From NCBI GenBank assembly GCA_048213135.1, contig PS015054.1, forward strand, positions 381,812 through 445,811: DNA of 64,000 nt, written 5' to 3'. The stretch's first letter is position 1. Each line of letters starts with the position of its first letter. The translations under genes were made by a program, and so were the position numbers. The DNA comes from Reclinomonas americana ATCC 50394. Its lineage: Eukaryota. This document shows, in pieces, positions 987-49,000 of this stretch. A model generated the notes under the pieces. The model had not been told where the DNA came from. It was given only the letters and a program-made list of their open reading frames with translations, and searched no databases.

Positions 987-3673
987 ATGGAGCCGGTTGT
1001 CACTGTGGTGCTTCCATCGTCGCCATCGCCTTCTGGGCAGACATCACCGACGCCGTTGTCGCTGCCGTCGGAGGTGGCGACTGCTGGGTGGCGTGAGGCC
1101 ATGCAGCTGGTGGAGCAAGCGGAGCAGAGGCGGAGGGAGGAGGCAGAGCTGCGTGAGCAGGCGATACAGCGATTGCAGGGTAATGGTGAGGCGTGTCTCG
1201 CCTAACGATGTTGCGATTCATGCTCATTCATCGCTGCGTGTGTAGCGCTGTGGCAAGTGGCAGTGCGTCGTCCTCGTGGTGTGTATGGAGTCGCAGGAGA
1301 GTCGGTGTCGCTTGCAGAGTGTCGACAACGCATGGGGCAAGCGAGCGCGGCGATCGTGCATCGAAAATCGTTGGTGTCTGCGGTGCCGCTGCTGTGGTGC
1401 ATGGTGGACCTGGTGCAGGCGAACGGGGAGCGCGAAGAGCTGCGTGGCTTGTGGGACGATGTGCTGTGCGTGGTGAGCTTGGCTGTTGTGTTGTGCGTGG
1501 CAGCTGCATGCATGAGTTCATCGGTCTTCCAACATGAAGCTGCAACACGACCAAGGGCAAGCGGCGAAAGCTCTGGCGGTGATGGACGCGGTGCTTGGCA
1601 TGTCGGCGCAGGAGTATCACTGGTGCGTCCGTGGGGTGGCGACTTGCGTGCATGTGTACGTCGGTGTGGTGACAGCAAATGTGCAGCGTGGTGTGGCAGC
1701 TGGTGCAGCTGCACGATGCACTCTTCCACGCCGCGCGACATCTCGGCTCGCCCCACGATGACTTGGCATGGATGCGTATGTGGCACCAGTTGACGTACCT
1801 GCAGCTGTGGTGTGGTGCACTGCCGGCATTGTGCCCGCCGTGGACCATGTCTCTGCAGGAGTTGCATGAGGCCGCTGGCGTCGGTGACAGAGCGCCGCAT
1901 CCATCCCTTCTTCGAGGTTCGTCGCACAGGTCGTGAATCCTGTCTGCATCACGCGCTCAGCCTCTTATTGCAGCCGTTTGTCGGGCACTATACTCTGGAT
2001 CGTCTCCGGTTGCGCCAGCGACTTTCACCGTGGGCCGATTGATCTCCGCTGCACGCGCATGTTTCGGTGACGAGGTCGTGGCTGTGGCTATCGCTTCGGA
2101 AGAGGAGGCACTGCATGGAACACCTGTCGTGGCGTGGGAGTCGTGGCGTCGCGCCATGCATGCACGTCGACAGCGTCTGGCGCTGCTTTGTGGTGGTGAC
2201 TCGCTCGGTACTGCGCCACCCATCGTCGGTGATACGGAGCACCTCTGGTGGCAGCATTGGTGGCCCGCCACTGACAGACGCGTGGCGTCTGTGGTGGACT
2301 GGGTAGAGTCGGTGCTTGTGCCGCAAGCGCAGCGTGTCTACGCCTCGGTGCATGTGCGTATTGCGCAGATGTTGTCCGCTGGTTCCGTTTCGCCGACTCG
2401 TGCTTCACAGGTCTCGTGGGAGTCGTCGGCCCTGCGCTGTTGGTGGCGTGTGTGGCGCGCGAGGAGAGCAATCAAGGAGCAATTCGACGAGACGCTGGCA
2501 GAACTGCAGTCCCTGGCGGCATTGCTGACCATGCATGCCGACACGGAATACGATCCACGGTGCGTTGCTTCCGCCGCGACTTATATGTGTGGCTGCAGTG
2601 TTTATTTATGAGTGTCGTTTTGCAGACCGCCGGCATCTCTCCCTCGTGAGATCCTCCACGAAGTGCGTCAGGTGGACAATGGTGACTGGCGTCGCTTCAT
2701 GTCACGGTACGCGGGCGCGCAATTATGTCATCTCGCACGCAGCCTTTGGTGCTCATCAACTTGCATTTCGTAGGGCGCATGATCGAATGTTCGCACTGGA
2801 GACGCAAGCGGCGCGATTGGAGACGCTCGTGTGGCACTTTGACCGCATGCTGCGACAGCCGCTGGCGTGGCAGCGACTGGAGAGCATGTTGCAGGAGCGT
2901 AGCCTGGTGTCGTTTGCGAACGAGCAGCATCGAGTGGTGCTCTCGGAGCTGTCAGATGTGCTGTCGACGCTTAACGATGAGGATAACGACTCGGACGTAC
3001 ACCAGAGTATCGCGGTCTTGACATTCGAGCTGTTTCGAGTGCACGCCCGACAGGCACGCTTGGATCGTATCGCTGAAGAGCGCCAGAGCCGTATACGAAC
3101 CCTCGCCGCGTTGCCGGCAGACGCGGTGCGCGAAAGCAAGGTGCTGGCCGTGCTGGCGGCGCATGTGGACACCATGGCTGCGCCGCCGTCTTTGTCAGCA
3201 TCGTCCGCGCCGTTGTTGCCCCGTGTGCGCTACGCCGACCTCCTACAGCAAGCTCTCGATGCAGACTGGGGAGAGAGGTGCGTCACTGCGACCGACCGTC
3301 AGCAAGCTAGCATCGCTCTCACATTTCTCAAATATTTGACAGGCAACGAGCTGCGCAGTCAGGGTCGATGCCTGGACGGCAAGAGGTTGACGAAGGAGGA
3401 GGAGGAAGTGGTGGAAGGCTGGCGGTCGGCGACCAAGTGCGCTTGGTGCGCTGGCTTCGCAGTGAGCGACGTCGAATCGGCGTGCAACTGCTGCGCGCTC
3501 TCACTCGCCGGGTGATTGCCAAGGGTCTGTGGCCGCACGCTCCGCAGCACGCCCATCCTTCTGTTGGCACGCCGGCGGCCGCATTCGACATACTGAGCAC
3601 GCTGCTCACACGTGTCATGTTTCGCCGTCGCAAGTCGTCGTCGGTGGATTCGCGCGGTCGCGCAGCAAGATGA
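987..3673 (+). CDS. Multi-exon hypothetical protein, helical and Trp/Leu-rich
   Basis: Chain of long coding-like ORFs (1257-1793, 1679-1936, 2030-2611, 2535-3515, 3368-3673) separated by short GT-AG introns. No family recognised. Confidence 0.5.
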
Positions 3674-3734
3674 ATGGACGACCACTTGTGTCATGTCTCA
3701 CCTCTTCTTCACAACTACTCGCAATCTGCACAAA

Positions 3735-6700
3735 CTAATCAACACGCCAGTCGCGGTAGAGCGCACGATTCGTGACGCGGTCTGAATCGGTCCACCCGCC
3801 GGCGTAATCGTGAACGCACATGTGCTCATATCTGTGAAGAAAGGGGAATGCATGAGACGAGTGCAGGCACGGGAGGAATGATGGTGTCGAGAAGCAACGC
3901 ACTCGCGGTGGGGGCCGTGCGCGACACCAAGCACCTGGAAAAAAACAAGGTGGTGTGAGCAGAGGCCACATGTGACTCTCAAAAAAACACACGCAGGCAA
4001 CACAACTCGATGCTTCTCGTTGAAGATGTTCTTGCGGTGGCTGCGTGACGGCACAGCGTCGTCGATGATGAGCGCACAGATCATTTGCTTCGCCGTTGCG
4101 CTGCCGTAATCGACGTTCTCGCCGAGCTCTCCGTGGAACTTGCCAAAGAGCGCCGCGCGATCCGCCAGACTGTCGCCGGCCGAGTGATGCCCAATGCTCC
4201 CTGCAAGTGCAGCAAGGTCAGCATCGCGGTGCGCCGACGACACAAGCAGTCGAAAACAAATAAACCTTCAAGGCCCTGCGCAATCGCATGGCGGCGAGCA
4301 ACCAGCGTCAGTCCGCGGCTGATGCCAGTCAACGGCGGCTGTGCATGGAAAGTGAGAAGGGTGCCCTCTCACACGCACACATCGTATGAAAACAAACCAC
4401 TGGCGGTTGCACTCGCAGGGCTTCAATGGCTTCCGTGATGACTGGAGTACCCTCCTGCACGACGCCAACGTGAGGGAGGTGAAAGAGCTGAGAACACAAC
4501 CATGGCGCCACACCGTGAGGAGCGTCGGCTGGCCGTTGTTGTACACGGGGTGCTCGACAATGTTGCCGTCGCGGATCGAGCTCCGAATGCTCTCCAGCAC
4601 CGGAATCAATGACTGTGGATTCGTGCGCACCTTGTTGAGTTCGATGAACGCATCGCGCTCCACGTCAGACAGAAAATCTGCCTCCTCCACCGCTGCACAC
4701 ACATCACCACAGCTGTCAGTCACACCAGCACATATCACGTACGATCTCGCACTTTACGAAACGAGTCGGCGGTGTCTCCTGATCCGCGGACGACGGCAAG
4801 GTGAAAGAAAATGTCTTGGACGACTCCCGGCCAATCTGGGGCGGTGACCGTGGCGACAGGGCATTCGACGCGCCGGGAACATCAACTAGGTGCGACAGGG
4901 GGCATTGTGTCAAGGCGAACAGGACTCGCAAACGAGCCGCACGAGACCACCAGTGGATCAGAAGCAAAGGATATCACAAGGTGGAGTGAATTGCCGGCGA
5001 GGAGACCGGCGTAGCCGACCCATGGGCACAGGGGACCGGACTCGCTGAACAGGTGCAACTCGAATTCGTCGTTTGGCAAGCCCCACGCCTCGCGAATCAT
5101 CTTGCGAACCGTCCTGCGTCAACACGCACACACACACATCGTGTCAGAGTACGCTGGTTTGCCACACAGCGCGTGCATGCCCACTTTGTCGCAACTTGAT
5201 CTCCGTGTTGGTCAGCACGTCCAATGTGAGTACGGCGCGCCGATTCGGCAGCTGGTGCGACACCTCCAAGAGTGCCTGCTGCGGTGGCTGGTCCGGCAGC
5301 GGTGGCAATGTGACAGCGTACAGCGAGTCGGTGGTCAAATTATCGACACGCCCGGCGCGTGACAAGACGGGGCCTGTGGCACGCCAATGTGAGTGAACGC
5401 ATACACATCAAAACAAAGGCTTACTCTCTCGTTGCACACCATCCTCTGCATCGGCGCGCAAATCAAACTCGGCGTCGTCGAGACGCCACGTCTTGGCGAC
5501 CGTCGAGCGCAGCTTGCGCAACGACATGACAAGCGGCGCCTCAATGGCCAGCTTGCCAACGCGCTCTTGCATGACACGGCGCACCGTCAGCAGCGTCTTG
5601 CGATCAGAGTACTCGCGGTCGGCGCGTGACACCTCGTCGTCGATGAACAGCAGACGCGCAGTCAGCTGCGCCACGGGACCGGAGCGCGGCAGCACAGGTC
5701 CTGTGCAGAGAGGGGAAAGTGCACAAGTGAGCAACGTGATGACAGCAGCAGCAGCAGCTCGTCGTTCGCGCGTGCGCACACCATCTTCACTGTCAGCGCG
5801 CCTGTGGTGACCGTCATGAGAGCAGAGTGAGAACGCGGGACAAGGACGGGAGATTGTCAACACAGACGCAACAGCTCAAACTCTGGCGGCAGATCCTGCA
5901 CCGTCGACTCCACCATGCGACGGATATCGGCCATGTCCAGCTTTGGCGGCACGTCGACAGAGAGCGACGACACGCGGTCGCCGAATACACGCTTGATCGT
6001 AATGGGGATTGGTTCCTCGGGTCGATCCGTCTTGCCAGTGGCGACGGCGGCAGGAGTGAATTGCGGGCGGTTGGAGACGACTTGCGGACTGTCGACCGAC
6101 TGCCGACGGTCCGGCCGATTGACGCGCAAATGCAGCACCGATGTGCCACGCAACTGCGCCACAGAGCCCTCTCGCGGAACCGGAACGCCTGCCATTCAGA
6201 AAATGCAGCACGTGTTGTCAAGACCAAATGGCGTGATCACGTGCCTCACGCAATCGATCACGCACCGTCCTCCGTCTCCATCAGCAGGTCAAAGTCGTCG
6301 ACCAGACTCCACGTCTTGGCCACGGTCTCGCGCAGCTCCGGCAGCCGCATATGTGCTGGTGCGTCCACTCGCATCGTGATGATCTTGTCCGGCATGGTGC
6401 GACGAATCGCCAGCGGGACTGTGTTGGCGGCGGCGGCTGCGGCCGGTGCTGCTGCCGCTCCGTTGGCATTGCTCTTCGGAGCAGGGGCCACTGGCGGCGG
6501 TGCCGCCGCCGACGCTGCAGTGGCAGCAGTAGCCGCAACAGGGGCTGGTGCTGGAACCGGTGCTCGTGACTGTGTGGCACCGAGATCCTCTTGCTGGTCC
6601 GTGTGCTGCACAAAGAGAATGCGCTCCGCCAGCTGCGACACCTTGCTGGTCAGCCGAACGGGCACCCCTGCACATGGAAGAAACACATCATTGAGCAGGC

Positions 6701-7761
6701 TGCACTGCATCGCAGCAGCAGTACTAGCAGCAGCAGCATACCGTTCTCGCCACCCGTGCAGCTGTGCATGCAAGGATTCGAGGAGGTGAGCACGACGACG
6801 ACAAGACGACAACGGAAGAAAGGAGAGTGCACGCAACAACTGAAAGTTCTGCAGCGACCACTGCTTGGCCACGACGTCGCGCACGCGGGTGAGCTCCATG
6901 CTCAGCGGCACGGCCAGCTTGAGTGTGACAATGCGATCGGCGAGCAAGCGCTTGACAAAAATCTCCACAGGAGCCGACGGCGACGCAGGTGGCGCGGCAG
7001 CGGCCGCCGGCACCTCCACCAGAAACACACTCCGATCGGAGAGATTGGCCAGATCGCCATCACGAGTCAGCACTTTTCCTGCACACATGCACCGATTCAG
7101 GTGGAGCGGTGGTGGAGACAGAAATCATACACAAACAAACCGGTTTCGCTGCCGATGCGCAGCTCAAAAGACAGCGCGTCGAGCTGCCACGCGCGCGCCA
7201 CCGCCTTGGTGAGGTCGGCCAGCGTCATGCCAGCCGCCGACGGCGCCTGCACCTGCAACAGCAACCATGCATCAGCAACCCCATATGCGGAAGTGTCCGC
7301 AGACCGCAACTCACGCAACATTGATGGCCTCCAGCAGCCCACCACGCATGCGCTTGACCAGCAACGCCGCAGGCTGCTGCTGTTGCTGCTGTGCCTCGCT
7401 GCCCGATGACGACGACACCGAATCCGTTGTCGGCGACGTGCGCGGGCGCGGAACACCGGGCATCGTGGCCAGCGGGGGCGGTGACAGCGGCGCAGCGGCC
7501 GAGGCTGCCGCCGCCTTGGGTTCCACCGCGCCCACAGTCGTCGCAGCGGCGGCCACTGCAGTTCGCCGCGGTTTGGCCTCCATGGGCAGCGGCCGAGCGG
7601 TCTCCGAGGTGGCGCGAGAGGCCGACGAGCGCGGTGTCGTGCTGGCGCCCCCAGCTGTCACAGTTGTCCGTCCGCATGTGTGAGAGCGGGCGTGGGAGAG
7701 AGAGCGAGAGCTGTGCAATACAAGACTCACCGGATGTCGCCTTTCGTGAAGGAGCACTCAT
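3735..7761 (-). CDS. Protein with six tandem ~85-aa ubiquitin-like (predicted beta-grasp) repeats and a C-terminal CAP/SCP domain
   Basis: Repeats such as LAIRRTMPDKIITMRVDAPAHMRLPELRETVAKTWSLVDDFDLLMETEDG. CAP motifs ELNKVRTNP, GENVDYG, LIIDDAVPSRSHRKNIFN, LGVAHGPH, MCVHDYAGG. Confidence 0.75.
4890..4974 (-). other. U12-type (minor spliceosome) AT-AC intron, 85 nt
   Basis: 5' site ATATCCTTT (4974-4966), branch CCTTGAC (4915-4909), terminal AC (4891-4890). Removal joins HLV|LVDVPG in frame. Confidence 0.8.
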
Positions 7762-7953
7762 GATGACGTGCGCGTGTGTCAATCACAGTCTGCACACGCA
7801 CAGAGTGAGAGAGAGCGTGTCATCAAAGGCAACGCCACGAATCCGTACACACGCACACATGCACGCATGCAAGAAAAGACACGCATGCGACACACACACA
7901 CACACACGTTTGAAGTGACACTCGTGCAGTTTGCACGCACAGAGAGAGGAAGA

Positions 7954-10900
7954 ATGGCAAAGGGAATAGAGAAGTAATGCATTCACGCGCGCACACTCAC
8001 CTGTCTCTGCGTCCGTGTGTGTGTGCGTGTGTGTGAAAAGAGAGTCGCCAAGAGAGAGCACTATGTAGTGTGCGTGTGTGTGCGCGCTCTCACAGGAGAC
8101 ACAAAAACAGAGAGGCAAGAGAAGTGCTGTTTTCTGCACGCGGACGCGCGCTTTTCATGCTGTCCCACCTCCCGGTTTCTCGCTCTCCAATGAGTGACTG
8201 TGACAGTGTTGCGTCTCTCCTCTCTCCCTCTCCCCACCCCCCTTCCTCTCTCTCTCTCTCTCACTGCACATGCTCAGCCTCCGCGCAAACGACGACGTGT
8301 ATGCGAGGCGCACAGTGAAGAGATCAGTGAATGGCCTCCGCCTTCCACCACAGATGCTGCTGCAAAGAGCAGTGATGACGATGACAGCAGTGCGGGCAAT
8401 GGAGGTGACAGTCGCGAGGATGCCCAAAACACACTGCCTGCGTCATCGGAAGAATCGCATGTGGTCATTGATGATGATGAGCAAGAGGAGGAGTCCTTGA
8501 GCGCAGACATGGCGTTGGCACGATGGTACCGTGCGCAAGTGCGGGAGAATGGCGATGCACAGTGGTCGGGGCGACGAGGGAATACACGCACGCTGTTGCG
8601 CTGGTTGGTGCGGGAAGGCGGGCCGGCCATTCGTCGTTTCCTGCGTGCGCAGTGGCAGCGGTGCAGCGAGGCGGTGCGACGGCGACCGCGCAGTGCGGCG
8701 TTGTGGGCCACGCTGGCGTCGTATCAGGAGAGGTGATGGGGCTCCATGCGGAAAGAGAAACGGTATTGGTTCCTTATGCTCGAGTGTGCAGGCTTGGTGA
8801 TGTGGATGGAGCGGTGGCTTCGCTGCAAAAGAGTCTTTCGCTGCGACCGCATAGCGGGCGTGTGCAGCAGGAGTTGGCGCGCTGTCAGTTGCGAAAGCGC
8901 ATCGCCGAGGTCTGTCTGTCTGTCTGTCTCTTCATCGCAGTGCATTGCAGGGAGTGCTGACGACTGTGTGCTTGCAGACTGTCCGAGAGGTGTGTGCGCA
9001 GCAGTCTCGTGTGCCACGGGAGCTGTCGGCCACGGTGCCGGTGGATCGGCGGCGCGATTTGTCGTATATGGTGCGGTGGGTGCGGGGAGCAAGCGAACGA
9101 GCACCCTTCCGCAACTCACCACTTTAAGGTTCTGTCGATATCGCGCCACCATTCTTTCGGCAGACGTTCATTGTGGAGTACGCCAATAGGTAATTGATTG
9201 TGGCTGATGTGTGTAAACGTGGTCCGCTCAGTTGCTGAAGCCGTCGGGCGGTGGTGTGCGTGCAGGGGTCGTCCTGTGATTCTCGAGGGCTGCCACCTGG
9301 TGCCACAAATGTGGACCGTGCAGCACATTCGCGAGGTGTGCGACTCGATTCCCCCGAACACCCACACGCTGCTGATGATATTGTGCTGACATGTTGATGA
9401 TTTGTCGATTCGCAGGTGGCGGGCGACAAGATGGTGGCGGTGCGTATGCAATGACCTATCCGCTCCTGCGACCATGCGTTTCACTATTCTTCTGCGCCCG
9501 GCAGCCGCGCTACTTGGTGCGTGGGAGTGCCGACTGGGCGCAGTTGGAAGACGGACCGCCGCTGCCAGTGCGCGATCTCTTGGCTAGGTTGGCAAGCGTT
9601 TGATATCTCTCTGACTTCTATATATGCTGATCCCGTTTCTCGTCTCGTTGACAGGCTCGAGCATCATCCGCCGGAGGGAGTGGAAGACCCAGCTGCCTCA
9701 CTTCCGTACCTCTTTGACTGGAATCTGCCGTCGGGATGCCCAGAACTCCTGCAGGAGGTGACGGTGCCGCGGTACTTTGCCGGTGAGTGTGCTGCTGAGG
9801 AACTGGTGCATGCATGCATGCATGTCGTTGACATTTGCCGCAGGAGACTTTCTGCAGCGCACCGCTGTCGGATCATTGTACCGGTCTGTCGACATTGCTG
9901 TGTCTTGTCGCTGCTGTGTGCACTGACTGGTGGAGGGTGCGCAGCGAATCGTGGCCGAGTCTCTTTGTTGGCGCCGCTGGCACCATGAGCGAAATGCGTG
10001 CGTCTCGTCTTCCCGCTTGTGTCGTTTCTGCTGCCCCTTTGACACTCACCCTGACGGCACAGATGTCGATGGTACTGCGGTGTGGCAACAAACAACTCGT
10101 GCTATGTTTTGTTTCTACTCACTGCGCTCGACTCAGCATTTGGCTCCAACTTTTACATGGCGCTCTTCCAGGTTCGTACGGCTCCATGCTCCTCCTCCCA
10201 CGCGGCGTACTCACCTCTGTCTTTCTCGTCGATGCAGGGTCGCAAACAGTTGCATTTGTGTGTGCCTTTTTGCTGTGTGCCTTCATGCAAGCCCCCCTCA
10301 CCACCTCGGCCAGCTGGGTGTTCTTCCCACGCGAAGACGTGCCACTCCTCTCGCCCAACTTCGACACCTCATTCGACGCCACGTTTGAGGTGGATCTCGA
10401 CCACCCCGATCTCGAGGCGCATCCAGCATTCGCACTGACACACGCACCCTGGGAGTGTGTTCTGCAGCCTGGCGAGTTGCGTCTCGTGCGTTTTTGCGTG
10501 TGTCTGCACCTGCACATGCACCGACCGAAGTAAGTGCAGCCTCCTGTTTGTGCCCGCCGGCTGTCCCCATCGCGTCAAGGTACAGTCGATGCCAGTGTGC
10601 GCGCGCACGTATCAACTTACTCACCCGTGGTGCGCAGAATCTCGACCTGACGGTCGCCGTCTCGGCCAACTATGTCGACACCAGCAACTTTGATTTGGTC
10701 GTGGAACAACTGACGCTGGCCGCCTTGACGTGTCCCCGCTCCAGGGACCTCCTTGACCAACTGCGACATCCGTCGTTCCCGCGCAGTCTCAATCCCCACC
10801 AGCAGGACGTGCCGTGGTCCGAGTTCAAGCGCGAACGCACTGCGCGGACTGCCGAGCTGTGCACATGGGACGGTATGCGCTGTACCATTGCGTTGCGCCA

Positions 10901-23351: not shown

Positions 23352-25272
23352 ATGAAAGACGAGGAGGCCGCGTGTTGTTGTGTGTGGCGAAAGACCAAGG
23401 AGGAGACGATGGAGTGGAGAAGGAGGAGAAGAGCGGGAAGCAAGTGGCTCACGTTGACGCTGTTTGCAGTGGTGTTTGCCTTGTGGACCTTTGATCCATC
23501 ATCGCCGTTCCTGGTGGAGTTTCTGATCGCGGAGAAGGGCGTGCCAGAGAAGGAGGTATGCTTGAAAGAGGAGCAGTAGTGTGTGCGTGCATGAGCGATG
23601 CCCTGATGCTGTGTGTTGAAGGTGTATGGCACTGTGTTCCCCACGTGGACGTATGCGTATGGAGTGGCGCTGTGTCTGTTGGCGCTGCTGACGGATGTCG
23701 TGGGTCACAAGACGGTGGTGGTCGTGGGCTCGTTGTGCAGACTCGGCATGGATGTGATGGTGTTGCTGTGCGACTCGATTCCCTGTTTCTTGGTGCGATC
23801 GCCTCTCTCTTTTCTCTCCTTCAGCTGTTGCTGCAACTCACACGCAGTGTGTGCGTGCAGGTGTCGGAGGTGTTGGGTGGCATTGGGTTTGCGGCGCAGG
23901 CGGCGTTCTTTGGCCTGCTGTTCTTGGTTGTCGAGCCCGAGTCGTTTCAAAAGGCGGTTCGTTGCTTTGCTGCTGTCGTCGACAATCTTTGCACATGCTC
24001 ACACACTCTGGGCGCACAGACATCGGTCACGCGCAGCGTGGGCCTGGCGGCCACCGTGGTCTCCAGCGTTGTGGGTCAGCTCATGTACCACGCCGGTGTG
24101 CGACTGTCGGTGCTCGTGTGGATCGCCACTGGTGCGTTGGGTGCATCAGTGGTGGTGTCGTTGGTGGGTCTGCCGCGAGGCGACAGAAATAAGGCCACTG
24201 TCGGTAGCGACAGCGAGCTTGTGCCGGAGTATGCACGGAGTGAGAAGCCACCGGCATCCGTCCGGCAGAGCATGCGATTGTTCTGGGCCGATCTGGCGCA
24301 GGCGTACTCCACGCCGACTGGCATCTGGTGGAGTGTGTTTGCGGCCATGATGCTCGCCGTGCATCAACTAGTCATTATCTACTGGCAGTCGCTGGTGCAG
24401 GAGGCCTTTGAGGGCGACAAGTTGCGGCGCTCTCTCCATCTCCTCTCAACTCCGTTACTCACACGCCGGGCTCGAGCAGATCAAAAGGTCAGCTGATGAA
24501 TGGCCTCTTTGTGGCCATTGCCTACTCGCTGGCTGCATGTGCAGCGCTGCTGCCCGTACGTCTGCGTGACCGACTCGATGTTGCGTCGTCGCCTCTGTCA
24601 GCCGTGCGCCCTCCCCCCACTCACCATGTTCCGTGCAGGGCGCCATTGGCCACATTGTGGCGATGCTGACACTGGCTGCAGCCGCTGCGCTGCTGGCCGT
24701 GGCCGCCCTCGTTCACAGCCTCCCCGTCATCTACGTATGCATTGGCGGATTCCATTCTCTTTTCGAGTTCATATATGCTGTGGCGACGGTGCAGATTGCC
24801 CGGCGGTGCGTCTCTTCTCTCCCCCTCTCTGTTCTCTCTGCGCGCTCACTCACTCACTTGCCCGCCCGCCTGCAGCATTGGGTCGACGCGCTACGCCGCC
24901 GTATTCTCCATAAATATGTTCGTGGCGCTGTTGGCGCAGACCGGCATCCAGTTGATGGTGTCGTCGGCGGTACTCAACTTGCACATCCGAACCCAGTTTC
25001 TGGTGTTCAGTGGTGTTGCCTCGGTGACGGTCGCGGCCTGTCTATTAGGTTATATGTGGCGGTGTCGCTTCGTTACCAAGGAGGATATGCAGGCGCTGGC
25101 CGCCGACGCGGCGATGCAGCGACAGGCCGTCAGTATTAATGCCGCCGACGGAGAGGCCATACAATATGTGAGCCAGGCAGAACATGTGTCGCTGCTGGCG
25201 GCCAGTAGTGAGCGCCCAGTGCCGATCGTGGCAGCGACTGTGGCACACTACGGCTCCACACCGACGCCATGA
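23352..25272 (+). CDS. SLC19-family reduced folate/thiamine transporter
   Basis: FDPSSPFLVEFLIAEKG...VYGTVFPTWTYAY...LLTDVVGHKTV matches the SLC19 N-terminal pattern; many TM helices follow. Confidence 0.85.
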
Positions 25273-25355: not shown

Positions 25356-27770
25356 TCAAGATCTGTCATCGCGCAGTACGGCAATAAGGGCGTTGCGAAT
25401 GTCGGACGTCGACACGCGCAGCAACTGGCTGTACGACAGAAGCACCGGTCCTGCACGTAGTTTCACATGAATATGGGGCATGGAACAGATCACGTGACGC
25501 CACCCTCCCTGCCACATACCGAATACCCGAATGAGTTCGCGCAGTCCGACGCGCGTCTCAGGTCTGCGACACAAGCTCAGCACAACACTCAACGCATGCA
25601 GTAGGCAGAGCGAGCGAGAGAACTCACGGGTGTGATGTGCCGTACTGCTCCGTGATCGAATCATCCGCAATGGTAAACATTGAACTGCGAATGTACCACG
25701 AGCACTTGTTCCACGGTGTACCGGGGCCTGTGCGCATCCAAGTGTGTGTCAGCACGCAGTATTGTTGTCGAGGAAAGTCGCAACGACGCGTACCAGCACT
25801 GTGCTGTGCCTGCAGTGCGTACACAAGAGCACCCTCGTCGTCGGCAATGCACACCGCATCTGCAGTCTGACTGCTCTCAAACTTTTTCCGCTCCACTGCC
25901 GCCGCCGACAAGACCGCTGCGTTGGTTATCGGTGGTCGTACAGCAAAGCGCTTCCGGAACTCGGCGCCAAGAGCATCGTTCGACATGCGCTCATAAGATA
26001 TTGCTAACGGTAAGCGAAACATATATATGGTCAGCAATCAACACATGCCTGGTTGACGAAGAACAGTGCGTTTTTTCGGCAGCGCACCTGGTCCGCGCTG
26101 TGGTCGCTGTTGTTGTTGTTGCTGTTGCTGTGGTGGCGGTGGTTGCTGCTGCTGCTGCTTCGCAGGCACCGCTGCTGGCGGAGGTACGGATGCGGCGTGT
26201 TGGTTCTCTTCCTCTGCGAGCATTCGAGCCAGAGCCGCATCAGCCTCCTCCTGCTCTCGTCGACTGTGCCTCTCGAACAAGTGAGAATAGGACGAAGGGA
26301 CGCACTGAGATAAACCGCACACACACACCTTACAAGCTGCTGGATCGGTTCGATATCCGCAACCAGGCTGGCGGGGGGCGCTGATTCGAATGTGTGATCG
26401 GCACCATTGGCCTCTGTCGGGTCACCAGACCGCGGCGCCACGAAGCCCTGTGCATCACGATTGTGAGTTTGAGAGATGAGAGATGCAGCGCGCACACACA
26501 CACACCAGCGTATTCCGAAAGAGTGCGTCCAACAGTCGATCCTGCACCGCCTGCACTGCGGCTTTTCGTCGCATGTCCAGCGTTTCTTGCAACGATGCCG
26601 GAGGTCCGCTCTTGCCACCGGCATTCGGGCCACGCTTGCCCGCCCCCTGCAGCGCAGGGAACTGCATGTCTGTGGGGTGCATGCAGAATGTCACAAGAAG
26701 GACTTTAGCGACTGCACGGACACACACAAACCATCTCGAACGCCCCGTGCCAACTCGCGGTCTTCCATTTCCTGAGCTGCGAGCACGATCTGTTGAAAGG
26801 CAGGCTCTTGAGGCCATGGGGCACTGTGCGCGGTGCGTACCTTCCTGTGCCTGTTTCCACGCTTCGTATTCGCCGTTGAAAAACACCTTGCCGGCGTCGG
26901 GTGGTGGTGGGATGCCCAACGACGACTCCAAAACGCCAAACAAGATGTCTGTGCAGCAACAGACGAATGAGAACGCTTGGCACAACAACCTTGCAACAGA
27001 ACGAGCGCGGTGCACCTTGACACTCGACGGCATCCTCCATGATGCGCGTGGGGTACACGACGTCGTAGTGATTGCCGTGCATGTAGCACAGATGAATGGT
27101 GTGCGGACCCTGTCCGTACGTGCTCTTGATGCCGCACTGGTCAAACACCACAATGTGCAGCTTGAAACGATCGGCCAGCGCTACGAGCTCCGGCTCGCCG
27201 CCCCACGTATCATCCTGTCGCATGTTGGCACAGTAGGCCACAAAATCCTCCTCCATGAAGTGTCGGTACAGGTCGGACTCGCGCTGAATGGTGTCGACCA
27301 CTCGATCGCGCACATACGAATTCCACGAGTATTGCACGTGGAACAGCTGCAACGCACGCAGGTGAGCGAGTAGGCGACGACAACGACGTACGATGCACAG
27401 AGCCGAGAGCAGCACACCTTGTCGGCCACGCATCGAAACTGCACAACGCACGTGTAAGGGCACACGAGAGAGAGAGGGAGAGGGAGAAAGAGAGAGAGAT
27501 CGCGCACACACCAGACACGAGCCATCCTTGGCGATGCGCTTGCGTGTGTAGCCCACACCCTGCAGGAAGCTGTCGAGAATGCGCACTTCGCGTCGATGCT
27601 GCGCTCGCAACTCGGCCTCACTGCTCACTCGCTCGTTCAGCAGATGCCTGTGAAGAGAGAGAGGGATGCAGGTGCACACGCAACTCGACTTGCGCTGCTT
27701 GCTGGGACGACTGCGATGCGCCACGATTGCCGCCGCGCTTCCCACCCGCCCCTTTCCGCTTGCCGCTCAT
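25356..27770 (-). CDS. OTU-family deubiquitinase with a C-terminal extension
   Basis: IAKDGSCL|FRCVADK (catalytic Cys loop), WGGEPELVALA, LCYMHGNHYDVV (catalytic His). Confidence 0.88.
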
Positions 27771-27929: not shown

Positions 27930-34231
<6,302 letters not shown>

Positions 34232-40767: not shown

Positions 40768-43700
40768 TTAGTCCTCGTCGTCGGCCGTGTGCAAGTCCTC
40801 GTCCTCATCATCGATCTCTGCCTCAATCACTCTTCTCACCGCACTCCGGTGCACGTCGAACTCCACCATTGGGCTCTCCACCGACGGAGTATCGTCGTTG
40901 GCCAGCTCCGCGTCCCACACTTGCTCCAGTCGCTTGCGACTCGGGGCAGGTGACCTCGGACTGGCGGCATTGGCCGACGGATTGTGTGACTGGAACGAGT
41001 GATGCAGCACGTGCATGGAGCGGTCCATGATGAACTGGTCCTCGTGCGTCGGTGGGCTGGGGGCGGTGAGCTCAAACGCCGACAGGAACATGGACAGGGG
41101 CAGGAAACGCTCCGGCGCCGATGCACCCTGCGGTCGATCGTCAGCGCATGACTTGCAAACACACCACAACCCGGCACCCACGCAACAGTCTCCTCGTGCC
41201 ACGCTTCGCGACGCGCCTGCAGTGCCATCGCCAGGTCCGTGAATGCCTCGCCTGGCCGTGGGTGCGGATTTCGCATGGTGGCGTGATAGAACTCGAGAAG
41301 CGGACTGTAATAAGGAGAGTCCCGAATGAGTCATGCGCACGTGCATGATTCGTGTGAGGGGGAACGCAACGTGGTGAAATCTGGGTCGTCTTCCATCAGC
41401 TCCGTACCAATCTCCTGCGTGAAGAAGCCGCGAGAGTGAGTGACACATGGAGACTCAGAATAAGAGGAGCATGTGACTGACCGCCGGCAAACACGCCAAC
41501 AAATCAAACTTGAAGGCCGGCGAGAAAGACGCCTCCGGATGGTTAATGTGCTCGCTGACAAACACATCCGAGATGCGGAAGACTCCCGCTCGCACATACT
41601 GCAAGAACATCTGCTCCGACAGGCAGTGCAAGCCGAGTGCCACGAATTCCTCCTGGAACTCCTCCGAAACCGGGAAGCCGAGGTCCTCGCACGCGCAGTG
41701 CAGTGCCTGTAGGATGTGGAAATAGTTGTGCAGCTGCGTCTGCAGGTTGGACGAGTCCGTCAGATCCGGCGTGGCCTCACGACTGATACCGCGGCTAATG
41801 TCGCCACCACCCAGCAAAATCGACGAGTCTGCGGAGGGATTGATGATGATGATGCAGACAGAAAACAAGCAGGGAAAGTAAGCAGACGCACCAGCAGCGG
41901 CACTGGCTGCGGCCACCGGGCTCGACAGCGCCGACGAAGACAAGTCGCCCTCCAGCGAAACACGAATCTGCGACACCGTGAGCACAACGCACGCCTCTCT
42001 CGTGCGCCACGCAGAAGAGCAACGCACTCGAACTGGTGTCGATGAAGTTGACTCCGCAGGCCCTGCTCGCAGTGGTTCCACTCCATGCAACAACTCCACC
42101 GGCAGTGCCACCGGTGTTGGTGCGATGCGGTGACCTGGCGCTGGCTCCAGCAGCAGTGCCCGCGCATCGGCAAACACTTCGCGAATGAGACGGAACAGCG
42201 CCGACGACTCTTCTGACTGCTCGCGTGCCGGTGAGATGGATGGATATGTGGTGTGTAGGGGAAAGACATGCACGCGACACGAACCAAAATGGCACCCATG
42301 TGTAGCGTCAGTGAAGCCACGCGCGGCTTGAGCTCCCGACTTGACGCCACCTTTTCCATGTGATACCTGCAATGCCGATAAAGGGGATATGCGGTGAGAT
42401 GACTGACAAAAATAGATGCACTGAGAGCAGGCGTGACGCACCGCAAGGCGTGCGCGAACACGCAGTTGCTGCGGAACGAGGCCGGCTCAAACACCACTTG
42501 CGAGCGATCTGGCATCCCAGAAGCGGCGGAACTCGCACTCGTGTCGGCAAAGCTCGCTCCAGTGGACGCGGCCAGCAACGATGCGTCCGACGCATAGAAC
42601 GACGAGTCGGCAACCGAGCGTGACAATGGCGACACTGCACATGTACAAACAAGTGAGACGGCTTCCAGCGACGAGCCGGCCAGTCCCACCCACCGTGAGG
42701 ATTCGCTCGACCCGCGGCACGTGTACGAGAGCTGTTTGTTCGTGACGGTGGTGATCTTTGCAAGAAGGTGAGACCGGGGCGGGGGGATGGAAGGCAGGCA
42801 GGTAATGCAAAACGAAACTGTCCCACATCGCTGTTGAGCGACACGTTGGATTGCACTCCGGGTGAACCCATTGTCGAGCTCGCCGAGGAGGTGTTTTGCA
42901 GACTCGACGACGACAACAGTCGGGTCATTGACTCATTCTGTGCATGCGAGCCGAGATACGAGATGCGCGGTTTCGGGTCGGGATTGCGGAGCGAGAATTC
43001 ACGAATGTCGTCCAGTGTCACTCGCCAGCGGTCGGAAGCAGGAGGCACGCGCTACACGCAGTAGGTGAGGTCTCTCTCAGCATGCATGTGAGTGTGTGCT
43101 TAGATGTGGATGGATACACACCGATTCGTCCAACAGCATGTAGTGCACATTGTTCGTCCGGTGATACCGATTGCCACACAGGCTCTTGCGACGCTGCGAG
43201 ACACAACACGAAAGATAAGAGGCGAGCGACGGACCATTCTCGACTCTGGAGAATGTACGAAACGTCGCGCTGAGACACGGACGCGATCACGGTGGTCATG
43301 GGCAAAAAGTTGAGGATCACCGGATCCACTTCCTCTTGCGCCGACATGTACGACGAGCCTGCAGGACGCGTGAGAGCTGGCTCGCAGCGATGAGACAAGC
43401 AAAGCTAATGTCCGCACCAAGCAGATACTCGGCCAACACGTCTTTTGAGAGGAGATGCGGAAACTCGATGCACAGTTTTCGGATAATCTGTGCGCGTGTC
43501 AACATACCGGCGTCGCGAGTGTTCCCTCACACACACACACACCTGCTGTGCCAGCTCGTACTCGCGGAGATGCACGAGGCAGCAGTGAATTGTCGGTGCG
43601 TAGCTCTTGGTGATCTTTAGCGAGAACCACTCCAGCAGTTCGGCCTTGTCGAGATAGTATTCGTACAACACACCACTGTGCGTATCGACAAGATATTCAC

Positions 43701-46077: not shown

Positions 46078-49000
46078 ATGGGCGTCCCCGCGTTCTTCCG
46101 GTTGCGTGCCACTGCCCCTCGCGCGCTCTCTCTCTCACACACACACGTGCTCTCTCTCTTTTTGGTGCTCACGTGCATTGCGCGCGCAGATGGTTGAGCA
46201 CCAAGTACCCACTGGTGATGCGCAACGCGGTGGAGGTGCGTCCAGAGGATCAGGCGGGTGTGCCGGTGGATATCACCGAGGCGAACCCGAATGGCGAGGA
46301 GTTTGACAACTTGTACCTCGATATGAATGGTGTGTGTGTGTGTATAAAGGAGAGTGCATGCATGCATGAAAGTGTGCTGACTTTTTTTGCGTTGTGAAGG
46401 CATCATTCACCCGTGCACGCATCCGCCTGATGGGGTGAGTGTGTGTGTGTGTGCGTGCTCTCTCGTTCTCTCTTTGTGTGTGTGAGGGGGAGAAGAAAGG
46501 GTCTTGTTTGAGTTGGTCATGACTTTGCGTGGGGGGACATGTGCAGGCGCCGCCTCCAACGGAGGAGCACATGATGGTGGCCATCATGGAGTACATTGAC
46601 CGCATCTTTGCGATTGTGCGCCCGCGCAAGTTGCTCTTCATGGCGATTGGTAAGAGAGAGAGAGAGAGATGAAGGCAATGCAGCATTTTGACACTTTGTC
46701 TGTGCAGATGGAGTGGCTCCGCGTGCCAAGATGAACCAGCAGCGGTCGCGTCGTTTTCGTGCGGTGAAGGAGGCCGATGAGCGTGCAGCAGCGCGTGAGG
46801 AGCTGGCCAAGGAGCTCCGTGCGCAGGGCCACAAGATCCCGCCACTGGAGCACGGATCGGTGTGTCACTGCTGCTTGCTGCTTGCTGTTACGTTGCATGC
46901 TGACTGGTCTCGGCAGCACTTTGATCGCAATGTCATCACACCCGGCACTCCGTTCATGGCCAAGGTGGCCGAGTGTGTGCGCTACTATGCGCTGAGTCGC
47001 ATGAACACGGAGCCGGCGTGGAAGAACGTTGAGCTCTCTCTCTCTCTCCTTGCCTCCTGTGCGCGTGTCTCTCACACGGTCTGTGTGTGCTGGTGTGCTG
47101 CAGATCAAGGTGATCTTCTCCGACGCCAATGCTCCCGGTGAAGGCGAGCACAAGATTGTCGAGTTCATTCGTGAGACGCGTGTCCGCGAGGGCTACGATC
47201 CCGACACCAAGCACGTGTTGTACGGCTTGGTACGTTTGCCGTAGTTTCCAATCCCCCCGGCGCGCTGGCTCACACTTGTCGTTGTGCTCGTGCAGGATGC
47301 CGATCTCATCATGTTGGCTCTGGCTACACATGAGGCGCACTTCACCATTCTGCGTGAGCAGGTGTTTGTGCCGCGCGATGAAATGATGCAAGATCGTGAA
47401 CGAAAGCAGCTGCTGGAGCGCATTGAAGAACTGCGTGGTACGCTTGACGCTCGCGCGCGTGGTGGCGAGAGCCCTCGTGCTCTTGCTGCTGCTCTTTTCC
47501 CCCCGCCTTTGCAGCCTGTGGACCAAAGCTCTGTTTCCCTGTTTGTGTGTGCGTGCGTGTGTGTGTGTGTGTCTGTGTATTGCGTGTAGCGTACGGCAAG
47601 CCGGTTGAGACAGAGGAGGAAGCGCGCTTGAACGAACTCGAGGCGGCGCGCGCAAAGGGACCAAAACCATTCCAGCTGCTCAGCATTCCAGTCTTGCGAG
47701 AGTATCTAGAGGCCGAGGTCTTTTTTTCGAGAGTGTGTGCAAACTTGCAGCTCCACGCCCAGTGTTGCTCATGCGCAAATGTGTCCCCTCCTCCTTCCCT
47801 CCCCCGCCCTTTCAGTTCCAAGTTCCGCAAGGCACACTGCCGTTCCCGTACGATTTTGAGCGCATCATCGACGACATTATCTTTATTCTGTTCTTCTGCG
47901 GCAATGATTTCCTGCCGCACTTGCCGGCGCTCGACATTCGCGAGGGAGCCGTCGACACCCTGTTCAACATCTACCGACGCATGCTGCCGCAGCTGGGCGG
48001 GTACGTCACCGATCGAGGCAGGATCAGTGTTCCCCGAGTAGAGCGTCTGCTGGCCGAAGTTGGTCAGTGCTCCCTCTCTTTGCACCGTAGTCGTGCAATC
48101 TACGCGGCCAACAATTATTTCTCCACTCGATGCAGGCACGTTGGAGGAGAAGTTTTTCATTCAGCGCACTCAACGCGAGGCACAGCGTGCTCGCCAGATG
48201 GCCAACCGCCGGTCAGTGCCCCTCTCCGCTTCGGCGGTCATGTTGTCTCGATTCTCACTCTCGTGGTCAGTGATGGCCATGGCCACGGCCACGGTCACGG
48301 TCACGGTGGATCGCGGGGCGGCGGGACTCCACAGACGCCCATGACGCCTCTGTCACCGTCGACACCGTTTTCGACCGTTCCCGGGTTTGCGGTGCCGTAT
48401 CAGGTTGTGGGCACAGCGGCCGAGATGCCCAAAATCGACGTGGTTCGCCGTGGTGTCTCCTGTCGGTGTGACATTAACATTGTGCCTGACACGCTTGTTT
48501 TTTATGTCTTGCACAGGCGGCCCTGGCGGAGGCAACTCGCCAGAATCAGTCGGTCAGTGCCGAGCTGCGCACTCGCGACAGCGGTGCTGCCAACAAACAG
48601 GCAGCGCGCGAGCTGAAGAACCAGCTCCTTGGCAAGCGCAAGCGGCCAAAGGATGAAACCGCGGCCGCTGGAGACGACACGGCTGCCACAGAGGCCAGCG
48701 CTGCCGCAGATGCTGCTGGCGAGGCTGTGGCAGAGGAGAGCATGGAACCGGTGACGGTGCTGCCGGCGGACGCACCTGATGCGGAGCTCGATGCGGCCAT
48801 GGCGGAAATGGCGGATGACATCCCCGCGCCAGAGTCTGACACTCCGGCAGGGGATGTGGAGGAACCACCCGTCAAGGCACGCAAGCTCGACGATGGCAGT
48901 TTCGTACCTCCTCCTGTGCCCCCCCCCCTCTCTGCCATATGGAGCACGAGCATAATCAATGTTGCTGCAGCTCCCATGGCCACGGCTGCCGCGCCAGAGG

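What the first reader, a model, noticed from the sequence alone, without database searches (positions are those of the whole stretch)
3735..7761. Unusual architecture: six tandem ubiquitin-like repeats fused to a signal-peptide-less CAP domain
Seen: six ~85-aa repeats with the pattern [LI]x[VI][KR]R...[LV]x[LV]...LxxLRxxVAxxW.L...F[ED]L...[ED]G.....G.V..L....L, at about 7370-7010, 6970-6600, 6420-6110, 6010-5630, 5600-5300 and 5270-4975, separated by Ala/Pro linkers. Five repeats have a phase-1 intron at the same Gly (SETG|, GENG|, TEDG|, SEDG|, AEDG|), which indicates intragenic duplication of a domain-plus-intron unit. Inference: the beta-beta-alpha-beta pattern suggests a beta-grasp (Ubl/PB1/RA-like) fold. 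I do not recognise a Ubl-array + CAP protein; it could be a cytosolic scaffold carrying a lipid/sterol-binding CAP domain.
Basis: partly seen in the sequence, partly recalled or inferred. Interest (0 to 1): 0.7.

Follow-up and report, generated by a model that had tools for sequence, protein, structure and literature searches.

The report
Six-repeat array fused to CAP domain
An intron-rich eukaryotic gene most likely encodes one protein with six diverged ubiquitin/PB1-like modules followed by a bacterial-type CAP domain and no secretion signal, a domain combination with no close relative found, though the fold of the modules and the single transcript are not yet proven.

Summary
On the minus strand, 7761-3735, an 18-exon model gives one open frame of 942-955 aa. 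It has six 73-80-aa repeats at the stated places, 22-37% identical. Each is recognised by a profile of the other five at 25-76 bits, against at most 10.5 for 1000 shuffles. Five repeats carry a phase-1 intron at the same Gly. The C-terminal domain is a CAP domain. The spliced model scores 157.9 bits against a profile of 18 Nostocales proteins, best of 1000 shuffles 2.9, and two of those 18 proteins pass Pfam CAP.

The beta-grasp reading is supported only indirectly. AlphaFold2 gives strand-strand-helix-strand at pLDDT 81-91 for the first 50 residues of a repeat. The one credible relative among 1.84 billion representatives passes a Pfam ubiquitin-like model. No whole repeat could be folded, and fold searches were inconclusive.

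The fusion rests on gene structure. The CAP exons have no start codon of their own, but the joining exon is unresolved and no RNA run was listed.

Verdict: a real, orphan architecture and a new variant of known kinds, of moderate interest.

The parts
3735..7761 (-). Whole coding region of the proposed single gene, ATG at 7761 to TAG at 3737-3735. It has 18 exons: 7761-7731, 7654-7320, 7252-7141, 7078-6838, 6761-6742, 6667-6266, 6188-5873, 5801-5782, 5700-5440, 5373-5196, 5113-4926 (or -4887, or -4978), 4835-4743 (or -4763), 4692-4514, 4454-4398, 4338-4266, 4200-4007 (or -4004), 3934-3903, 3831-3735.
   Evidence: Spliced by coordinates. The frame is open for 942-955 aa and all introns are GT..AG, 50-90 nt.
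7320..7761 (-). Exons 1-2 with intron 1. They encode about 105 aa of low-complexity N-terminal region rich in Ser, Thr, Ala, Pro and Arg, and the first strand region of R1. There is no hydrophobic signal.
   Evidence: The upstream in-frame stop is at 7785-7783.
7005..7370 (-). Repeat R1 (aa 106-185). Introns lie at 7319-7253 and 7140-7079, the second being the phase-1 intron at Gly.
   Evidence: Leave-one-out score 45.0 bits.
6600..6971 (-). Repeat R2 (aa 196-268), with a 20-nt micro-exon at 6761-6742 between introns 6837-6762 and 6741-6668.
   Evidence: Leave-one-out score 50.1 bits. AlphaFold2 on the in-frame read-through of this stretch gave strand 2-10, strand 13-21, helix 27-38 and strand 44-47 at pLDDT 81-91.
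6115..6422 (-). Repeat R3 (aa 329-405), with the phase-1 intron at Gly at 6265-6189.
   Evidence: Leave-one-out score 71.8 bits.
5633..6012 (-). Repeat R4 (aa 441-515), with a 20-nt micro-exon at 5801-5782 between introns 5872-5802 and 5781-5701.
   Evidence: Leave-one-out score 64.2 bits.
5303..5599 (-). Repeat R5 (aa 527-603), with the phase-1 intron at Gly at 5439-5374.
   Evidence: Leave-one-out score 76.5 bits. AlphaFold2 on exon 9 gave strand, strand, helix for its first part at pLDDT about 70.
4972..5281 (-). Repeat R6 (aa 611-686), the most diverged. It has one intron at 5195-5114 and none at the Gly.
   Evidence: Leave-one-out score 25.3 bits against a best shuffle of 6.0.
4693..4971 (-). 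Unresolved joining region between R6 and the CAP domain. At least three in-frame splice paths exist. An in-frame TGA at 4884-4882 would end the array if the region is not spliced.
   Evidence: Read. Two paths were built. Coding score per codon is -0.10 to 0.23, against 0.13-0.59 for 11 of 13 confident exons.
3786..4687 (-). CAP domain (aa 735-926 of model A2), in six exons with five introns.
   Evidence: 157.9 bits against a profile of 18 Nostocales CAP proteins, covering profile positions 46-233 of 234; best of 1000 shuffles 2.9 bits. The exons tile colinearly on the Nostocales proteins. Two of the 18 homologues, the only two scanned, pass Pfam PF00188.

Best explanation
WHAT IT IS. One gene encodes a non-secreted protein of about 945 aa, arranged like beads on a string:
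- a disordered N-terminal stretch
- six diverged small alpha/beta modules, most likely of the beta-grasp (ubiquitin/PB1-like) kind, joined by flexible linkers
- a C-terminal CAP domain of the bacterial YkwD type

WHAT IS SHOWN. The repeats, their shared intron position, the CAP identity, the absence of a signal peptide or membrane segment, and the absence of a Gly-Gly end after any repeat (so the array is not a processable polyubiquitin).

WHAT IS INFERRED.
- The modules are protein-protein interaction units. All six keep an acidic Glu-x-Gly turn after the third strand. Five of six keep a basic pair (Lys/Arg-Arg) at the end of the first strand. From recall, these are the two surfaces that PB1 domains use to bind head to tail.
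- The array therefore tethers, spaces or clusters the CAP domain inside the cell.
- The CAP domain supplies a ligand pocket for a small hydrophobic molecule or a metal, as known for other CAP proteins.
For: - Open 18-exon frame.
- Repeats validated by leave-one-out profiles at 25-76 bits, against at most 10.5 for shuffles.
- AlphaFold2 gives strand, strand, helix, strand with pLDDT 81-91 for R2 residues 1-47, and strand, strand, helix with pLDDT about 70 for R5.
- A profile of five repeat-bearing exons found 3 proteins at E <= 0.001 among 1.84 billion representatives. Two of them are not credible: P0001 is a run of near-identical repeats, and P0003 has no matched stretch. The third, P0002 (E 3.5e-4), passes Pfam Rad60-SLD (28.6 bits, cut-off 23.8). 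P0002 also touches ubiquitin, UCH_UBL1, Ubiquitin_4, RA and RAWUL below their cut-offs.
- The six-unit profile scores P0002 at 40.2 bits, against 7.1 for the best of 2000 shuffles.
- CAP: 157.9 bits against the Nostocales profile. BLASTP identity is 37-43% in 121 rows, about 192-195 aa in the 15 rows printed. Two of the 18 homologues pass PF00188 at E 1.5e-12 and 4.2e-11.
- Fusion: read, the CAP-frame exon 13 has no in-frame ATG, and the only ATG that can reach the CAP frame (at 4903) lies upstream of the array's own would-be stop at 4884-4882.
- No signal peptide, no membrane segment, no Gly-Gly after any repeat, and only 2 Cys in the 210-aa CAP region.
Against: - No Pfam family matched any contiguous repeat piece, even at E <= 10.
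- The last third of a repeat was never modelled as strands. It came out as a low-confidence helix and as coil.
- Foldseek found nothing at E <= 0.001.
- hhalign of the exon profile against P0002 gave only 40% probability.
- The joining region has weak coding potential in every frame, and its splice path is not determined.
- A separate upstream exon carrying a signal peptide cannot be excluded in the GT-repeat-rich 5' region.
- The function is entirely inferred.
Confidence: 0.5

Rival explanations
1. Two genes. The repeat array ends at the in-frame TGA at 4884-4882, and the CAP domain belongs to a separate, overlapping or alternatively started transcript.
For: - The stop at 4884-4882 is in frame if no intron is removed after R6.
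- The joining region scores like non-coding sequence, -0.10 to 0.23 per codon.
- One proposed donor (GTCCTG at 4925) is unlike the other 16 donors.
- Intergenic spaces here are short: about 220 nt to the convergent open frame that ends at 3515.
- No RNA data.
Against: - Read, the CAP frame has no ATG in exon 13 or in the 60 bases before it.
- The only ATG that can be spliced into the CAP frame (4903) sits inside the array's own reading frame, before its stop. A separate CAP gene would need a promoter inside the array gene.
- That start gives no signal peptide either.
- Several in-frame splice paths join the two parts (and reading).
Confidence: 0.25
2. The repeats are a small alpha/beta module of some other fold that merely begins strand-strand-helix-strand. 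They are not beta-grasp domains, and the link to ubiquitin-like families is spurious.
For: - No Pfam hit.
- No hit to solved-structure sequences.
- The protein-atlas searches gave nothing usable.
Against: - P0002 was picked from 1.84 billion proteins at a library-wide E of 3.5e-4, and it is ubiquitin-like by six Pfam models.
- The unit length (73-80 aa) and the order of predicted elements fit a beta-grasp (recalled).
Confidence: 0.2
3. A secreted or organelle-targeted protein whose true N-terminus was missed. Either an upstream exon carries a signal peptide, or the Ser/Thr/Ala/Arg-rich first 34 aa followed by Arg-Arg and an Ala/Val/Thr stretch (aa 40-54) is a targeting peptide.
For: - From abstract starts in the listing (PMC11599453), CAP proteins are mostly secreted.
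- The 18 Nostocales homologues start with hydrophobic, mostly lipobox-like N-termini.
- A hydrophobic open frame starts at 7981 in the upstream region.
- Composition of aa 1-34 and the 1.8 hydropathy peak at aa 44-54.
Against: - The frame at 7981 lies inside what looks like a 5'UTR intron (GTGAGT at 8001, CAG at 7791), and it runs into a GT microsatellite.
- An in-frame stop at 7785-7783 precedes the ATG at 7761.
- The CAP region has only 2 Cys.
- No targeting predictor was available.
Confidence: 0.1

Closest known systems
YkwD-type CAP-domain proteins of cyanobacteria (annotated 'CAP domain-containing protein', 'uncharacterized protein YkwD' or 'serine protease' in Nostoc, Scytonema, Brasilonema and Desmonostoc)
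   Same: - The whole CAP domain is colinear with them. Identity is 37-43% in 121 BLASTP rows, about 192-195 aa in the rows printed.
- It scores 157.9 bits against a profile of 18 of them.
- Exon 16 alone matches 41 of 301 sampled cyanobacterial genomes, at up to 52% identity.
- All 120 listed relatives carry PF00188.
   Different: - The bacterial proteins are 227-273 aa, with one 424-aa double-CAP exception. The 18 I read start with a hydrophobic, mostly lipobox-like N-terminus.
- This domain is split by five spliceosomal introns, has no signal, and sits behind about 730 aa of other sequence.
GAPR-1 / GLIPR2, the signal-less intracellular CAP protein of animals (recalled, not fetched)
   Same: A CAP domain without a signal peptide, hence presumably facing the cytosol.
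   Different: From recall, GAPR-1 is a single CAP domain, myristoylated and bound to the Golgi. It has no repeat array and belongs to another CAP subfamily. Nothing about it was tested here.
Tandem ubiquitin-like arrays: polyubiquitin, ISG15/FAT10, Rad60/NIP45 SUMO-like domains, the five-Ubl tail of USP7 (recalled)
   Same: Several small modules in a row. The only library relative of the repeats, P0002, passes the Pfam Rad60-SLD model.
   Different: - The repeats are only 22-37% identical.
- They are separated by linkers of 7-60 aa.
- None ends in Gly-Gly, so they cannot be cleaved and conjugated like ubiquitin.
- No such array is known to me with a CAP domain.
PB1 domains (p62, aPKC, Par6, NBR1, plant ARF/Aux-IAA; recalled)
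   Same: - About 80 aa.
- A conserved basic residue at the end of the first strand in 5 of 6 repeats.
- An invariant acidic Glu-x-Gly turn after the third strand in 6 of 6 repeats. These are the positions of the PB1 basic and acidic (OPCA) surfaces.
- Two PB1 structures appear among the weak Foldseek rows: 6tgs at E 8.1 and 4ic7_E at E 9.2.
   Different: - Pfam PB1 did not match any piece, nor P0002.
- The acidic motif is shorter than the classical one.
- PB1 domains usually occur once per protein, not six times.

Membership tests
CAP / SCP / PR-1 superfamily (Pfam PF00188) | Significant sequence match to the family profile | tested here: met
   DIRECT: Pfam scans of contiguous exon pieces found nothing. 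NCBIfam YkwD (TIGR02909) gave only E 0.045, 13.7 bits.
TRANSITIVE: the spliced domain scores 157.9 bits over positions 46-233 of a 234-position profile of 18 Nostocales proteins, against 2.9 for the best of 1000 shuffles. The two of those 18 proteins that I scanned pass PF00188 at 48.8 and 44.1 bits, cut-off 21.1. All 120 listed relatives carry PF00188.
CAP / SCP / PR-1 superfamily (Pfam PF00188) | Alpha-beta-alpha sandwich fold with the central cavity and its His/Glu residues | not tested
   The domain is split over six exons, and spliced sequence could not be handed to the folding tool. Conserved His and Glu positions are visible in the alignment, but they were not mapped onto a structure.
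CAP / SCP / PR-1 superfamily (Pfam PF00188) | Secretion signal (typical of the family, not obligatory) | tested here: not met
   There is no hydrophobic N-terminus under the model that starts at 7761. The caveat about the 5' end is.
Ubiquitin-like beta-grasp superfamily (Pfam clan of ubiquitin, Rad60-SLD, PB1, RA) | Significant sequence match of a repeat to a family profile | tested here: inconclusive
   Contiguous pieces of 47-133 aa gave no ubiquitin-like, PB1 or RA family, even at E <= 10. Each repeat is cut by one to three introns, so no whole repeat could be scanned. Indirectly, P0002 (E 3.5e-4 library-wide) passes Rad60-SLD. hhalign probability is 40%.
Ubiquitin-like beta-grasp superfamily (Pfam clan of ubiquitin, Rad60-SLD, PB1, RA) | Fold: a mixed sheet of four to five strands gripping one helix, in the order strand-strand-helix-strand-strand-(short helix)-strand | tested here: inconclusive
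Ubiquitin / polyubiquitin proper | C-terminal Gly-Gly at the end of each unit, for cleavage and conjugation | tested here: not met
   Gly-Gly occurs at aa 12, 115, 243 and 922 only. None of these follows a repeat's last strand.
PB1 domain (Pfam PF00564) | Basic residue on the first strand and/or an acidic OPCA motif in the strand 3 - strand 4 turn, plus a profile match | tested here: inconclusive
   A basic pair is present in R1-R5 and lost in R6. Glu-x-Gly is invariant in all six repeats. There was no PF00564 match in any piece. The motif definitions are recalled, not taken from a call.

The most novel reading that the evidence does not exclude
- The six modules form a new, fast-evolving branch of PB1-like beta-grasp domains. 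Each keeps both a basic face and an acidic face.
- The array therefore zips head to tail, within one chain or between chains. It builds filaments or condensates that concentrate a CAP domain inside the cell.
- The CAP domain itself was captured from bacteria. Its closest relatives found here are cyanobacterial lipoprotein-like proteins. After capture it was invaded by five introns.
- Together this would be a new family of intracellular, polymerising CAP proteins built from a horizontally acquired domain.
Probability: 0.12. Interest if true: 0.7.

Novelty: new variant of a known kind. Interest (0 to 1): 0.45.

Why it matters
From abstract starts in the listings (PMC11599453, PMC4921858), CAP proteins are mostly secreted, occur in all kingdoms and include sterol binders, yet their mode of action is still called elusive. 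An intracellular CAP domain tied to six interaction modules would be a natural experiment. It would show what a CAP domain does when anchored inside a cell.

The gene is also a clean case of domain and intron evolution. A domain-plus-intron unit was duplicated six times, with two added 20-nt micro-exons. It is joined to a domain whose nearest relatives found here are bacterial.

The value is limited for four reasons:
- the organism is unknown
- no orthologue was found
- there is no expression evidence
- there is no functional handle

Tried and rejected
- WHOLE GENOME: none is held for this window.
- RNA: no RNA holder was listed for 3600-7900.
- PROTEIN DATABASE, longer proteins: exon 9 and exon 16 gave no hit at E <= 0.01. 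The exon 16 search also missed the 233-252-aa Nostocales proteins found later, so this blank is weak.
- REPRESENTATIVE LIBRARY: 3 hits at E <= 0.001. P0001 is a run of near-identical repeats that matches the linker part of the profile. P0003 has no matched stretch. Both were rejected as spurious.
- PFAM on 16 contiguous window pieces: one weak, irrelevant row (DUF7134, E 0.035), otherwise nothing.
- SOLVED-STRUCTURE SEQUENCES: exon 16, the exon profile A1, the R6 piece and P0002 gave nothing meaningful. A Nostocales protein gave only rows at E 0.075 or weaker.
- PROTEIN ATLAS: no usable hit for R5. Best score for exon 9 was 0.77, to unnamed clusters.
- TBLASTN of exon 16 against plasmids: no match.
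- ALIGNMENT A2, of repeat fragments to the R2 read-through: it misplaced the C-terminal fragments and was not used. A4, without them, was used instead.
- FOLD SEARCHES on the two partial models: no significant match.
- PF00240 was sought in a Nostoc genome and the control genomes, to obtain reference ubiquitin sequences. Nothing rang.
- INTRONER IDEA: the four introns with a GTTGCG donor share nothing beyond the splice sites, and the five Gly-position introns are not alike. Rejected.
- CODING-POTENTIAL SCORING could not choose among the joining paths.
- EARLIER NOTES of this scan: none for this genome.
- PAPERS: three full-text searches, read as listings and abstract starts only, showed no description of a CAP domain joined to ubiquitin-like or PB1 repeats.
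- Complex prediction was not used, because the report claims no specific binding pair.
Full report
WHAT IS THERE

The stretch is eukaryotic, about 60% G+C. Its open frames are broken into short pieces on the minus strand. I read the minus strand and fixed exon ends by coordinates. This gave an 18-exon model from the ATG at 7761 to the TAG at 3737-3735.
- All 17 introns are GT..AG and 50-90 nt long.
- The spliced frame is open for 943 aa. It is 942 aa if exon 16 ends at 4007, and 955 aa if exon 11 ends at 4887.
- These ends coincide with the finding's coordinates.

THE REPEATS ARE REAL

Six units of 73-80 aa lie at 7370-7005, 6971-6600, 6422-6115, 6012-5633, 5599-5303 and 5281-4972.
- They are 21.6-37.3% identical pairwise.
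- A profile built from any five recognises the sixth at 25.3 bits (R6) to 76.5 bits (R5). The best of 1000 shuffles of that unit scores 6.0-10.5 bits.
- In a six-frame scan of the whole window (1386 open pieces), only pieces of this gene match.
- R1-R5 each have a phase-1 intron after the first base of the same Gly codon. R6 has none there.
- R2 and R4 have a second intron seven codons upstream, which leaves 20-nt micro-exons at 6761-6742 and 5801-5782. I chose those exon ends partly because they restore the repeat pattern, so they are not independent evidence.
- The introns at the shared position are not alike in sequence. This fits an old duplication of a domain-plus-intron unit.

WHAT THE REPEATS ARE

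Sequence searches say almost nothing.
- Pfam found no ubiquitin-like, PB1 or RA family in any contiguous piece.
- Solved-structure sequences gave nothing, and neither did the protein atlas.
- A profile of five repeat-bearing exons, run against 1.84 billion representative proteins, returned three hits at E <= 0.001 and none at 1e-10. Two of the three are artefacts.
- The third, P0002 (169 aa, E 3.5e-4 for the whole library), has two units that align with the first 50 positions of the repeat. It scores 40.2 bits with my six-unit profile, against 7.1 for the best of 2000 shuffles. hhalign probability is 40%.
- P0002 passes Pfam Rad60-SLD (E 1.2e-6, 28.6 bits, cut-off 23.8). Below their cut-offs it also touches ubiquitin, UCH_UBL1, Ubiquitin_4, RA and RAWUL, which are all beta-grasp families.

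Structure prediction was limited to window-contiguous translations, and every repeat is cut by introns.
- Exon 9 holds the end of R4, a linker and the start of R5. It gave strand 34-42, strand 47-55 and helix 60-77 at pLDDT about 70.
- In R2 the two introns and the micro-exon happen to be readable in frame. This gives the true first 45 and last 22 residues around 58 meaningless ones.
- With that piece AlphaFold2 gave strand 2-10, strand 13-21, helix 27-38 and strand 44-47 at pLDDT 81-91. It did not resolve the last third.
- Fold searches with these partial models were inconclusive. Foldseek had no row at E <= 0.001. The weak rows include an N-terminal ubiquitin fragment (1gjz, E 8.6, rmsd 2.4 over 49 columns) and two PB1 domains.

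The beta-grasp reading is therefore the best available, but it is not shown. I put it near 65%.

Two details point, from recall, to the PB1 flavour:
- a basic pair at the end of the first strand in R1-R5
- an invariant Glu-x-Gly turn after the third strand in all six repeats

None of the repeats ends in Gly-Gly, so this is not a polyubiquitin precursor.

THE C-TERMINAL DOMAIN IS A CAP DOMAIN

Exon pieces alone failed against Pfam. They gave only E 0.045 to the NCBIfam YkwD model.
- A pattern scan of prokaryotic genomes with exon 16 found 18 Nostocales loci at 44-47% identity over all 65 residues.
- Their open frames are proteins of 232-252 aa with hydrophobic, mostly lipobox-like N-termini.
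- The two of them that I scanned pass Pfam CAP at E 1.5e-12 and 4.2e-11.
- Five of the six CAP exons (exon 17, 10 aa, was left out) tile along these proteins in order.
- The spliced model scores 157.9 bits over positions 46-233 of a 234-position profile of the 18 proteins. The best of 1000 shuffles scores 2.9. The score favours 4007 over 4004 as the end of exon 16 (157.9 against 153.5 bits).
- A database search with the combined alignment found 2345 relatives at E <= 1e-5 among the 8000 candidates scored. All 120 listed carry PF00188. Those that bear a name are called CAP domain-containing protein, YkwD or serine protease, mostly from Nostoc.
- The spliced domain is 37-43% identical to them.
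- Exon 16 matches 41 of 301 sampled cyanobacterial genomes.
- Whether eukaryotic relatives exist could not be seen, because the list is dominated by the query's own clade and gives no taxonomy. Bacterial origin is therefore a lead, not a result.

ONE GENE OR TWO

After R6 the frame runs into a TGA at 4884-4882 unless an intron is removed. What follows in this section is read, unless a call is named.
- Exon 13, the first CAP exon, starts in phase 1 and has no in-frame ATG.
- The only ATG that can be spliced into the CAP frame is at 4903. That is inside the array's frame and before its stop.
- At least three in-frame paths join the parts:
  - donor at 4925 or 4886 to the acceptor before 4835, then the strong GTACGT donor at 4742 (both built)
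  - donor at 4977 to the same acceptor in another frame, then a donor at 4762
- Coding-potential scores for the joining pieces (-0.10 to 0.23 per codon) fall between those of introns and those of confident exons. They do not decide.
- No RNA run was listed.

I judge a single gene about 70% likely.

THE N-TERMINUS

- An in-frame stop precedes the ATG at 7761.
- Upstream there is a likely 5'UTR intron, with GTGAGT at 8001 and CAG at 7791, and a GT microsatellite.
- The first 105 aa are low-complexity, with no signal-like hydrophobic stretch. No membrane segment is present anywhere.

HOW IT MOST LIKELY WORKS

This part is inferred.
- It is a flexible intracellular chain. Six interaction modules hold, space or cluster a CAP domain.
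- From abstract starts in the listings (PMC11599453, PMC4921858), CAP domains include sterol binders, and their mechanism is still called elusive.
- No ligand, partner or location was tested here.

NOVELTY

Both domain kinds are known. Three things are new:
- the combination of the two
- the number of modules
- the orphan status of the repeat family: one weak relative among 1.84 billion representatives, and no full-length relative in the searches I could run

Three paper searches, read as listings only, showed no such architecture.

Noticed in passing
window 7319, 6837, 5872, 5195 (also 4006 and 4886), minus strand: Four introns of this gene start with the same unusual donor hexamer, GTTGCG. 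Two further candidate donors start with GTTG. The introns share nothing else.
   Followed up: partly
window 6761-6742 and 5801-5782, minus strand: Two 20-nt micro-exons sit at the same place in repeats R2 and R4. Each lies between a phase-2 and a phase-1 intron.
   Followed up: partly
window 7791-8001 and 8092-8157, minus strand: There is a likely 5'UTR intron (GTGAGT ... CAG) containing a GT microsatellite. Upstream of it is a 22-codon upstream open frame starting at 8157. A divergent open frame on the plus strand begins near 8194.
   Followed up: no
window 23495-24496 (+), 26705-27766 (-), 28103-28999 (-), 41455-42486 (-), 47609-48616 (+), 57462-58271 (+), 63108-63998 (-): Neighbouring open frames match, in coordinate order, reduced folate carrier, OTU protease, squalene epoxidase (E 3.9e-86), gamma-secretase-activating protein C-terminus, Xrn1 helical domain, TPR repeats and GH18 chitinase. 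This is an ordinary eukaryotic gene set, with nothing plastid-related among them.
   Followed up: partly
L008 578-1279 and 1629-2198; G001, G033, G060, G099, G243, G285: The cyanobacterial CAP genes often lie in tandem pairs or triplets one to two kb apart.
   Followed up: no
P0005: A 424-aa protein from an unnamed assembly has a eukaryote-style or Sec-type signal peptide and two tandem CAP domains of the same subfamily. It is a different way of multiplying this domain.
   Followed up: no
window 7761-7560, minus strand (aa 1-54 of the model): The first 34 aa are rich in Ser, Ala, Thr, Pro and Arg. One acidic residue (Glu) is visible in the printed sequence. They are followed by Arg-Arg and an Ala/Val/Thr stretch. 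This looks like a targeting peptide, but no predictor was available.
   Followed up: no
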